NCBI RefSeq assembly: GCF_003334405.1
Contig: NZ_QOWM01000005.1
DNA from: Escherichia coli
GTDB taxonomy: Bacteria > Pseudomonadota > Gammaproteobacteria > Enterobacterales > Enterobacteriaceae
Direction: 5' to 3' (one strand)
DNA: 64,000 bases
This document shows, piece by piece, positions 58,262 through 58,498 of this stretch. Made by a program: the position numbers and the translations under genes. Positions within the stretch are counted from its first letter, which is position 1, and every line of letters starts with the position of its first letter. Below the pieces are notes generated by a model, which ran no database searches, had not been told where the DNA came from, and saw nothing but the letters and a program-made list of their open reading frames with translations.

Positions 58262-58498
58262 AATTGCCGGATGCGGCGTAAACGCCTTATCCAGCCTACG
58301 TTCGGCAACGGTTGTAGGCATGATAAGACGCGCAAGCGTCGCATCAGGCATCGTGCACCGATTGCCGGATGCGGCGTAAATGCCTTATCCGGCCTACGTT
58401 CGGCAACGGCTGTAGGCATGATAAGACGCGCAAGCGTCGCATCAGGCATCGTGCACCGATTGCCGGATGCGGCGTGAACGCCTTATCCGGCCTACAGT
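58262..58498. repeat. tandem BIME array (about 2.4 copies of a 98-bp unit) in aceA-aceK intergenic region
   Basis: unit gattgccggatgcggcgtaaacgccttatccggcctacgttcggcaacggttgtaggcatgataagacgcgcaagcgtcgcatcaggcatcgtgcacc recurs at 58262, 58360 and 58458. Confidence 0.95.

What the first reader, a model, noticed from the sequence alone, without database searches (positions are those of the whole stretch)
58262..58498. Tandem 98-bp BIME array between aceA and aceK
The aceA-aceK intergenic space holds about 2.4 near-identical copies of a 98-bp unit, each containing two REP-type palindromes. Copies differ at only a few positions (aaacgcc vs aaatgcc vs gaacgcc; ccagcc vs ccggcc; ggttg vs ggctg). Stable mRNA secondary structure here is a plausible way to lower aceK expression relative to aceA within one operon, and the tandem arrangement makes copy-number change by slippage or recombination likely between strains.
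Basis: seen in the sequence. Interest (0 to 1): 0.3.

Follow-up and report, generated by a model that had tools for sequence, protein, structure and literature searches.

The report
Variable REP/BIME-2 array between aceA and aceK
The spacer between two genes of the E. coli glyoxylate-bypass operon holds five copies of the species' common palindromic repeat (REP), a long-known kind of element whose copy number at this site runs from 0 to 7 between strains, so the finding is real but ordinary.

Summary
Window 58263-58511 holds 2.5 copies of a 98-bp unit (94% matches). It fills the 280-bp spacer between aceA (58518-59822) and aceK (56501-58237), both on the minus strand. The units are three y-type and two z2-type REPs in alternating orientation, which is a textbook BIME-2 array. 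The same family occurs at three other places in the window and dozens of times per E. coli genome.

The predicted copy-number variation is real. In about 100 genomes sampled from 5,426, the spacer is 280 bp (5 REPs, this allele, about 45%), 182/183 bp (3 REPs, K-12 and O157, about 22%), 48 bp (no REP, about 13%), 124 bp (about 10%), 215 bp (about 5%) or 85 bp. At least three genomes carry 378 bp (7 REPs). One carries IS1397 inside a REP loop. E. albertii has 11 REPs. The extra unit of the 7-REP allele is a hybrid of two neighbouring units, as unequal crossing-over would produce.

The functional reading is only partly supported. The transcript is very structured, but predicted aceK ribosome-site accessibility does not follow copy number. 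REP-less alleles are common. The literature places the aceA-to-aceK drop mainly in poor translation and in termination inside aceK.

BIMEs and their copy-number polymorphism are already known, so interest is low.

The parts
58263..58511 (.). Whole tandem array: 2.5 copies of a 98-bp BIME-2 unit
   Evidence: TRF period 98, 2.5 copies, 94% matches, score 449. Direct-repeat families D1 and D2.
58462..58495 (-). y-type REP number 3 (first in the mRNA). GTAG lies 5' on the minus strand. Stem carries the AA/GC two-base mismatch.
   Evidence: 0 mismatches to the y consensus. RNA hairpin -19.5 kcal/mol.
58448..58461 (.). Head-to-head linker, 14 nt (ATCGTGCACCGATT on +)
   Evidence: Read from the sequence. 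Identical to the linker at 58350-58363.
58412..58447 (+). z2-type REP b (GTAG on the plus strand)
   Evidence: 1 mismatch to the z2 consensus. It shares the locus-specific ATCATGCCTAC variant with the other z2 here. Hairpin -14.8 kcal/mol.
58398..58411 (.). Tail-to-tail linker, 14 nt (GTTCGGCAACGGCT)
   Evidence: Sequence. Differs at one base from the linker at 58300-58313.
58364..58397 (-). y-type REP number 2 (loop variant GGCATTTACGCC in mRNA sense). Part of unit b, which K-12 lacks.
   Evidence: 2 mismatches to the y consensus. Allele comparison.
58350..58363 (.). Head-to-head linker, 14 nt
   Evidence: Sequence.
58314..58349 (+). z2-type REP a
   Evidence: 1 mismatch to the z2 consensus.
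58300..58313 (.). Tail-to-tail linker, 14 nt (GTTCGGCAACGGTT)
   Evidence: Sequence.
58266..58299 (-). y-type REP number 1 (last in the mRNA, CCAGCC variant), 28 nt upstream of the aceK AUG
   Evidence: 2 mismatches to the y consensus. Hairpin -17.3 kcal/mol and distances.
58496..58517 (-). aceA-proximal flank. It is related to the tail-to-tail linker and forms a small hairpin just after the stop codon (-6.8 kcal/mol).
58238..58265 (-). aceK-proximal flank carrying the Shine-Dalgarno GAGGG. Includes the private base at 58251.
58518..59822 (-). aceA (isocitrate lyase), upstream cistron
   Evidence: NCBIfam NF011645, 802.7 bits. RefSeq annotates a 1305-nt aceA in matching genomes.
56501..58237 (-). 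aceK (isocitrate dehydrogenase kinase/phosphatase), downstream cistron
   Evidence: NCBIfam NF002804, 944.7 bits.
57870..57954 (-). AceK-int sRNA / premature termination site inside aceK. Related context, not part of the array.
   Evidence: Exact match to MG1655 b4830. Terminator-like hairpins at 57953-57938 and 57899-57878.

Best explanation
This is a BIME-2 array: three y and two z2 REP palindromes in alternating orientation, repeated with a 98-bp period, in the intercistronic spacer of the aceBAK operon. It belongs to the E. coli REP family, which is dispersed in high copy and which the REP-associated tyrosine transposase (TnpA-REP/RAYT) recognises. Units are gained and lost locally by unequal homologous recombination or replication slippage between in-register units, and possibly by RAYT-catalysed strand exchange. 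E. coli strains therefore carry 0 to 7 REPs here. Shown: the anatomy, family membership, dispersal, polymorphism and the hybrid-unit signature of unequal exchange. Inferred: the array is transcribed as part of aceBAK mRNA and folds into very stable hairpins. These most likely act as a barrier to 3'-to-5' exonucleases and as a weak attenuator. Transcripts that end at the terminator inside aceK would be trimmed back to the array and leave a stable aceBA message. This adds to the large AceA:AceK difference but is not its main cause. Copy number itself is probably close to neutral. A hairpin of some kind occupies this site in most of the Enterobacterales spacers sampled, so what is conserved is a stem-loop after aceA, not the BIME.
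For: Anatomy. REP typing: y and z2 consensus matches with 0-2 mismatches. GTAG and the AA/GC stem mismatch are read from the sequence and match the features Ton-Hoang 2012 lists. Rfam RF02564, built on the Y-l-Z2 unit of REP325, scores 85.6 and 81.8 bits against a gathering score of 59.5. Dispersal: all 5,426 genomes matched, median 36 places per genome, capped, and three other BIMEs lie in this window. Polymorphism: spacer lengths in an evenly spaced sample of 60 genomes were 280 (27), 182 (9), 183 (4), 48 (8), 124 (6), 215 (3), 85 (1), 228 (1) and an IS-split locus (1). The 378-bp allele is in at least 3 genomes. Both 182 and 280 occur among flanks 99.8% identical to the window. Mechanism of change: the 7-REP allele is unit a, then a hybrid (loop of b plus linker of a), then b, then the terminal y. 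K-12 lacks exactly unit b, while O157 keeps a b-like unit. Both z2 copies share a locus-specific base. IS1397, the REP-loop-specific IS, sits in a y loop of this spacer in IAI39. RNA: MFE -140.8 kcal/mol, z = -6.29. Single REP hairpins are -15 to -19.5 kcal/mol and a whole unit -43 to -52. Termination inside aceK. Outgroups: a 48-51-bp single-hairpin spacer in Enterobacter, Lelliottia, Klebsiella oxytoca, Pluralibacter, Trabulsiella, Phytobacter and Pectobacterium; one REP pair in Salmonella, Citrobacter and Kluyvera; 11 REPs in E. albertii; 50 of 65 spacers fold with z < -2. Published roles of REPs as mRNA stabilisers, attenuators and gyrase/Pol I/IHF sites, and variable BIME number between strains, are in PMC3333891.
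Against: No expression or 3'-end data for this array were examined. The decay-barrier role rests on analogy with other REP-containing operons. Predicted aceK RBS accessibility does not change with REP number. Alleles with no REP are common, so any effect of the array is dispensable or is replaced by the simple hairpin. The RAYT contribution to copy-number change is not distinguishable here from RecA-dependent exchange or slippage. Allele frequencies come from about 100 sampled rows, not a full census, and the genome collection is biased towards clinical lineages.
Confidence: 0.8

Rival explanations
1. Adaptive rheostat. The number of REP units sets the AceA:AceK ratio, and different E. coli lineages have been selected for different copy numbers to tune the split between the glyoxylate bypass and the TCA cycle.
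For: Copy number varies widely and tracks lineage: 5 REPs in HS and O104:H4, 3 in K-12 and O157, 2 in ST131, 4 in Nissle 1917, 0 in other sampled strains such as APEC O2:K1:H4. Total folding energy scales with copy number, from -19 to -182 kcal/mol. A structured spacer is conserved across genera.
Against: RBS accessibility shows no trend with copy number. The reported causes of the downshift lie in translation and in termination inside aceK. BIME copy number varies at many loci between strains as a general property. The lineage pattern is what neutral inheritance would also give.
Confidence: 0.12
2. Purely selfish or neutral passenger. The array is parasitic REP DNA that sits in a permissive intercistronic gap and has no effect on aceBAK expression.
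For: REP-less alleles are frequent. Copy number ranges from 0 to 11 across Escherichia. The family is dispersed and is associated with a transposase-like enzyme. An IS can interrupt the spacer in a natural isolate.
Against: Most sampled Enterobacterales spacers keep a stable hairpin at this position, 50 of 65 with z < -2, including the REP-less E. coli allele. This points to constraint on structure. REPs in transcribed spacers have documented effects on mRNA decay elsewhere.
Confidence: 0.3
3. The DNA-level role is primary. The BIME-2 array is a DNA gyrase binding and cleavage site, or a topological insulator, that absorbs positive supercoils generated by strong aceBA transcription heading towards the convergent arpA gene.
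For: BIME-2 elements are the class reported to be cleaved by gyrase in vivo and to act as topological insulators (references in PMC3333891). The array lies downstream of a strongly induced transcription unit, and aceK converges with the ORF at 54346-56532.
Against: Nothing at this locus was tested. Outgroup spacers with a single short hairpin are not BIME-2, so this role would not be conserved.
Confidence: 0.1
4. Source of nucleoid-associated RNAs. Y-linker-Z2 units processed out of aceBAK mRNA act like naRNA4 of REP325, binding HU and bridging cruciform DNA.
For: Two units pass the Rfam naRNA4 gathering score on the transcribed strand, 85.6 and 81.8 bits against 52.6 and 48.2 on the other strand. 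Qian et al. 2015 report that two-hairpin Y/Z2 RNAs with HU condense DNA.
Against: The match is generic. The three other y/z2 BIMEs in the window also pass, so the model recognises BIME-2 units, not a specific gene. No processed RNA from this spacer is annotated in MG1655. The activity was shown only for REP325.
Confidence: 0.04

Closest known systems
BIME-2 (bacterial interspersed mosaic element, family 2) of E. coli
   Same: y and z2 REPs of 34-36 nt in alternating orientation. GTAG at the foot and a two-base mismatch in the y stem. Tandem repetition with short linkers. Extragenic position. Unit number that varies between strains.
   Different: Nothing substantive. A/B1/E-type alleles use a 14-nt head-to-head linker (98-bp unit), while B2 alleles and E. 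albertii use a 7-nt linker (91-bp unit).
REP325 / naRNA4 (Rfam RF02564), the six-unit Y-l-Z2 array between yjdM and yjdN
   Same: Same unit architecture, transcribed from the upstream gene's promoter. Rfam scores are above the gathering score on the transcribed strand.
   Different: 2.5 units instead of 6. No evidence of processing or HU binding here. The Rfam model matches every y/z2 BIME in the window.
Intercistronic REP stabilisers of malEFG and hisJQMP (Higgins and co-workers; recalled from memory, functions listed in PMC3333891)
   Same: REP hairpins lie just 3' of a highly expressed cistron and 5' of a weakly expressed one in the same operon. The expected mechanism is protection of upstream mRNA from 3' exonucleases.
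   Different: The documented causes of the aceK downshift are poor translation and termination inside aceK.
REPIN/RAYT systems (Bertels and Rainey 2011; Nunvar 2010; Ton-Hoang 2012)
   Same: Inverted REP pairs as the unit acted on by a domesticated Y1 transposase. Each REP here has the GTAG and stem mismatch that the enzyme requires.
   Different: No RAYT gene was looked for in the window, and enzyme involvement in the changes seen here is not shown.

Membership tests
REP / palindromic unit (E. coli) | Imperfect palindrome of 30-40 nt with a conserved GTAG at the 5' foot | tested here: met
   All five units have GTAG (CTAC on the other strand) next to a 34-36-nt imperfect palindrome. Definition from PMC3333891.
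REP / palindromic unit (E. coli) | Two-base mismatch in the stem, required for TnpA-REP binding | tested here: met
   The y hairpins fold as 7 bp, an AA/GC internal mismatch, then 3-4 bp. This matches the AA/GC positions mutated in Ton-Hoang 2012.
REP / palindromic unit (E. coli) | High-copy dispersed family confined to extragenic DNA | tested here: met
   8 y and 5 z2 sites in 64 kb against 0 expected. Median of 36 matching places per genome, capped at 40 pieces. This copy lies between two CDSs.
BIME-2 | Composed of y and z2 REPs (not z1) | tested here: met
   Matches to the y and z2 consensus with 0-2 mismatches. The consensus sequences were recalled from memory. They are corroborated by the Rfam model of a Y-l-Z2 unit at 85.6 and 81.8 bits.
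BIME-2 | REP and inverted REP alternate, in multiple tandem copies | tested here: met
   Order y(-), z2(+), y(-), z2(+), y(-) with a 98-bp period.
BIME-2 | Short S linker between the pair, and s, l or r flanking motifs | not tested
   Linkers are short (14 nt each), but they were not compared with the named motif consensus sequences. Bachellier 1994 and 1997 and Gilson 1991 are not held.
BIME-2 | Number of tandem units at a locus varies between strains | tested here: met
   0, 1, 2, 3, 4, 5 and 7 REPs at this locus.
BIME-2 | Bound and cleaved by DNA gyrase in vivo | not testable with these tools
   Needs gyrase cleavage mapping.
naRNA4 (Rfam RF02564) | Score at or above the family's gathering threshold | tested here: met
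   85.6 and 81.8 bits against 59.5. Three other BIMEs in the window also pass, so the test does not discriminate.
naRNA4 (Rfam RF02564) | Discrete RNA of about 77 nt that binds HU and condenses DNA | not testable with these tools
   No RNA from the spacer is annotated in MG1655. Northern blot or RIP data would be needed.
REP mRNA stabiliser (functional class) | Stable hairpin on the transcribed strand immediately 3' of the protected cistron | tested here: met
   The first REP stem begins 26 nt after the aceA stop codon. Hairpins are -15 to -19.5 kcal/mol and the array z = -6.3.
REP mRNA stabiliser (functional class) | Decay intermediates with 3' ends at the REP, and upstream mRNA half-life that depends on the REP | not testable with these tools
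   Needs 3'-end mapping and half-life measurements.

The most novel reading that the evidence does not exclude
A stable RNA stem-loop directly after aceA is under selection throughout Enterobacteriaceae. Each lineage fills the slot with whatever palindromic repeat it has: a simple GC hairpin, one REP pair, or a BIME array. In E. coli the number of REP units would then quantitatively set aceBA mRNA stability, and so the AceA:AceK ratio, giving lineage-specific set-points for the glyoxylate-bypass switch.
Probability: 0.1. Interest if true: 0.45.

Novelty: already known. Interest (0 to 1): 0.15.

Why it matters
It matters little as a discovery. REPs between aceA and aceK have been known since the operon was sequenced (my recollection of the 1988 aceK papers). 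BIME-2 arrays and their strain-to-strain copy-number variation are textbook material (PMC3333891; Bachellier et al. 1997 as cited there). The locus is still a convenient natural allelic series of 0, 1, 2, 3, 4, 5 and 7 REPs, plus 11 in E. albertii, in front of a gene whose dosage is critical, since AceK is made at about 1/300 the level of AceA. It could therefore be used to measure cleanly what each added REP does to the stability of upstream mRNA and to downstream expression, a question still answered mostly by analogy. It is also a practical warning. The spacer length differs between common laboratory strains (K-12 182 bp, many A/B1 strains 280 bp), which affects primer design and operon engineering.

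Tried and rejected
(1) My first regex scan for REPs missed several copies because of best-match, non-overlapping settings. I replaced it with the DNA search and a manual layout.

(2) I tried to read Chung et al. 1993 (PMC204903), Bachellier et al. 1997 (PMC1207841) and Gilson et al. 1991 (PMC333889). None is held. The aceBAK expression data are therefore cited second-hand from PMC5435950, and the S, s, l and r linker motifs could not be assigned.

(3) I searched for the Liang/Rudd/Deutscher work on REPs close to stop codons triggering ribosome stalling and did not find it. From memory the effect needs a REP within about 15 nt of the stop codon. Here the REP stem starts 26 nt after the aceA stop, so I did not pursue that mechanism.

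(4) I considered the naRNA4 hit as a specific gene and rejected it, because every y/z2 BIME in the window passes the same model.

(5) I considered direct occlusion of the aceK ribosome-binding site by the array and rejected it, because unpaired probabilities show no trend with REP number.

(6) I ignored the ORFs of 68 and 78 aa that run through the array as by-products of the repeat. I did not search them.

(7) PMC3680233 had no relevant passage.

Full report
OBSERVATION

The region 58100-58700 was read directly. Tandem Repeats Finder finds one array at 58263-58511, with period 98, 2.5 copies, 94% matches, no indels and score 449. The repeat finder gives two complete 98-nt copies that are 97% identical, and a third copy of 53 nt.

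The neighbouring ORFs are aceB (59852-61471), aceA (58518-59837 as an ORF; the RefSeq-annotated 1305-nt gene is 58518-59822) and aceK (56501-58237). All are on the minus strand, and each matches an NCBIfam equivalog far above its cut-off. The array fills most of the 280-bp aceA-aceK spacer (58238-58517). The operon is transcribed right to left in window coordinates.

WHAT IT IS

Laid out in mRNA sense, the spacer has these parts in order:
- The aceA stop codon.
- A 22-nt flank with a small hairpin.
- Two 98-nt units. Each unit is GTAG plus a y REP, a 14-nt head-to-head linker, a z2 REP ending in CTAC, and a 14-nt tail-to-tail linker.
- A terminal y REP.
- 28 nt carrying the Shine-Dalgarno GAGGG, followed by the aceK AUG.

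The three y copies match the y consensus with 0-2 mismatches. The two z2 copies match the z2 consensus with 1 mismatch each. I recalled those consensus sequences from memory. They are corroborated independently by Rfam family RF02564 (naRNA4), which was built on the Y-l-Z2 unit of REP325. It matches two units at 85.6 and 81.8 bits against a gathering score of 59.5.

The y hairpins show the GTAG foot and the AA/GC stem mismatch. Ton-Hoang et al. 2012 describe these as defining features that TnpA-REP requires. The same paper defines BIME-2 as y plus z2 in multiple tandem copies with short linkers, which is what is seen here.

The family is dispersed. There are 8 y and 5 z2 sites in this 64-kb window against 0 in shuffles. 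Every one of the 5,426 complete E. coli genomes has dozens of matching places. The two z2 copies here share a locus-specific base (ATCATGCCTAC) that the three other z2 copies in the window lack. The units therefore arose by local duplication.

VARIATION BETWEEN STRAINS

A query made only of the flanking 300 + 300 bp, with no repeat sequence, found the locus once per genome. Sixty rows taken at even steps down the ranking gave the following spacer lengths.

| Spacer (bp) | Rows of 60 |
|---|---|
| 280 | 27 |
| 182 | 9 |
| 183 | 4 |
| 48 | 8 |
| 124 | 6 |
| 215 | 3 |
| 85 | 1 |
| 228 | 1 |
| locus split by an insertion | 1 |

An independent sample of 40 rows taken with a different query also gave about 45% for the 280-bp allele. 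A synthetic 3.5-unit query found three genomes with a colinear 378-bp, 7-REP spacer.

Representative alleles were fetched and compared. The window's 5-REP allele is the commonest in the sample.
- K-12-type strains lack exactly unit b.
- O157 keeps a b-like unit and has a different aceA-side flank, so the two 3-REP alleles are different events.
- The middle unit of the 7-REP allele combines the loop of unit b with the linker of unit a. That is the product expected from unequal crossing-over or slippage between misaligned units of the 5-REP allele.
- B2-type alleles (124 and 215 bp) use a 7-nt head-to-head linker (91-bp unit) and end in a truncated z2.
- Both 182- and 280-bp alleles occur among flanks 99.8% identical to the window.
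- In IAI39 the spacer holds IS1397, inserted in the loop of a y REP (GGCATT|IS|ATTTACGCC). This is the documented target of that IS (references).

OUTGROUPS

A degenerate DNA pattern for aceK codons 16-24 retrieved 120 loci from the species-level genome collection. Of these, 67 gave a clean aceA-aceK spacer.
- Enterobacter, Lelliottia, Klebsiella oxytoca, Pluralibacter, Trabulsiella, Phytobacter and Pectobacterium have 48-51 bp with one GC-rich hairpin followed by the Shine-Dalgarno sequence.
- The REP-less 48-bp E. coli allele has the same length and layout, and its last 12 nt are identical to Phytobacter's.
- Salmonella, Citrobacter, Klebsiella indica and Kluyvera intermedia have 92-102 bp holding one tail-to-tail pair of their own REP types.
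- Pseudescherichia has one REP.
- E. albertii has 542 bp, made of five 91-nt units plus a terminal y (11 REPs), with the same flanks as E. coli.

Fifty of 65 spacers of 40-140 nt fold better than shuffles by more than two standard deviations. The Enterobacter-type hairpin recurs elsewhere in three of the loci, so it too is a dispersed palindrome. What is conserved at this site is therefore a stable stem-loop. The BIME is the Escherichia version of it.

HOW IT LIKELY WORKS

Shown:
- The mRNA-sense strand folds to -140.8 kcal/mol, z = -6.29.
- Single REPs give -15 to -19.5 kcal/mol, and a whole unit can form one long hairpin of -43 to -52 kcal/mol.

From the literature:
- The AceB:AceA:AceK ratio is about 0.3:1:0.003, and transcription terminates prematurely within aceK (PMC5435950, citing Chung et al. 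1993).
- A conserved 3' terminus and the sRNA AceK-int lie inside aceK (PMC10687069 and PMC8175672).

AceK-int (MG1655 4,218,879-4,218,963) maps exactly to window 57870-57954 on the minus strand. It coincides with two terminator-like hairpins.

Inferred: most transcripts read through the array and stop 284-368 nt into aceK. 3' exonucleases then trim back to the REP hairpins and leave a stable aceBA message. This is the classical REP-stabiliser role listed in PMC3333891.

Against a stronger, tuning role:
- The predicted unpaired probability of the aceK ribosome-binding site is 0.30-0.52 with no trend from 1 to 7 REPs.
- REP-less alleles are common.
- Variable BIME number is a general property of these elements.

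I therefore rate the array as a known element with a probable auxiliary effect on mRNA decay, and its copy number as near neutral. The rivals (adaptive rheostat, pure passenger, gyrase site, naRNA source) are listed in the Rival explanations section with their refuting experiments.

COMPARISON AND NOVELTY

Every testable defining feature of REPs and of BIME-2 is met. Only the named linker motifs and gyrase cleavage were not tested. The naRNA4 match is real by Rfam's threshold but generic, because the three other y/z2 BIMEs in the window also pass. BIMEs, their polymorphism and the IS1397 association were described in the 1990s (references). The finding is therefore already known. Both are useful and neither is surprising.

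CAVEATS

- Allele frequencies come from about 100 sampled rows of a clinically biased collection.
- Tandem repeats can be collapsed in some assemblies.
- No expression data were analysed directly.
- The primary papers on aceBAK expression and BIME motifs could not be read.

Noticed in passing
window 58251: The window has A here, while the closest genomes have C. The best identity among 5,426 complete E. coli genomes is 99.8% over 480 bp, and this base is the only difference from the closest genome I fetched (L001). In the mRNA it is position -14 from the aceK AUG (CCUGAUGAGGG becomes CCUUAUGAGGG), in the loop of a small hairpin that holds the Shine-Dalgarno sequence. It may be a private SNP or a sequencing error.
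   Followed up: partly
window 57870-57954 (-): Exact copy of the annotated sRNA AceK-int (MG1655 b4830) inside aceK, at nt 284-368 of the gene. Two terminator-like hairpins (57953-57938, and 57899-57878 followed by a U tract) lie within it. This is the likely site of the premature termination reported for aceK.
   Followed up: partly
L010 (E. coli IAI39) 3301-4919: IS1397 (IS3 family) is inserted in the loop of a y REP of the aceA-aceK spacer, which separates aceK from aceA by about 1.6 kb. Its effect on aceK expression in that strain is unknown.
   Followed up: partly
L006 and rows H89, H92-H95, H97-H99: About 13% of sampled E. coli genomes have a 48-bp REP-less spacer with a different hairpin and a stronger Shine-Dalgarno (AAGGAG). 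It closely resembles the spacer of other Enterobacteriaceae. Whether it is an ancestral polymorphism or an import was not resolved. Its flanks are about as diverged from the window (95-96%) as those of other B2-type alleles.
   Followed up: partly
L017 (Escherichia albertii) spacer, 542 bp: An 11-REP array (five 91-nt y/z2 units plus a terminal y) at the same site with the same flanks as in E. coli. The BIME at this locus may therefore predate the split of the two species.
   Followed up: partly
window 27388-27509, 31616-31738, 41336-41412: Three further y/z2 BIMEs. Each matches Rfam naRNA4 above the gathering score on the minus strand.
   Followed up: no
window 43312-43508 (+), 41124-41273 (+), 63774-63889 (-): Rfam gathering-level hits: lysine riboswitch (99.5 bits), sRNA STnc430 (79 bits) and 5S rRNA (90.4 bits).
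   Followed up: no
window 54346-56532 (+): A 728-aa ORF convergent with aceK, overlapping its 3' end by 32 bp, with no NCBIfam match at E <= 1e-10. By position it should be arpA, which PMC5435950 describes as located between aceBAK and iclR and disrupted in B strains. It is intact here.
   Followed up: no
L123 9514-9534, L117 10-30, L065 12483-12503: The CCCTCTCC...GGAGAGGG hairpin that forms the aceA-aceK spacer in Enterobacter recurs a few kb away in the same loci. It is probably a genus-specific dispersed palindromic repeat.
   Followed up: partly
window 58213-58449 (-) and 58271-58477 (+): ORFs of 78 and 68 aa run through the repeat array. REP copies elsewhere are sometimes annotated as hypothetical proteins (row H37). 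These are probably spurious.
   Followed up: no
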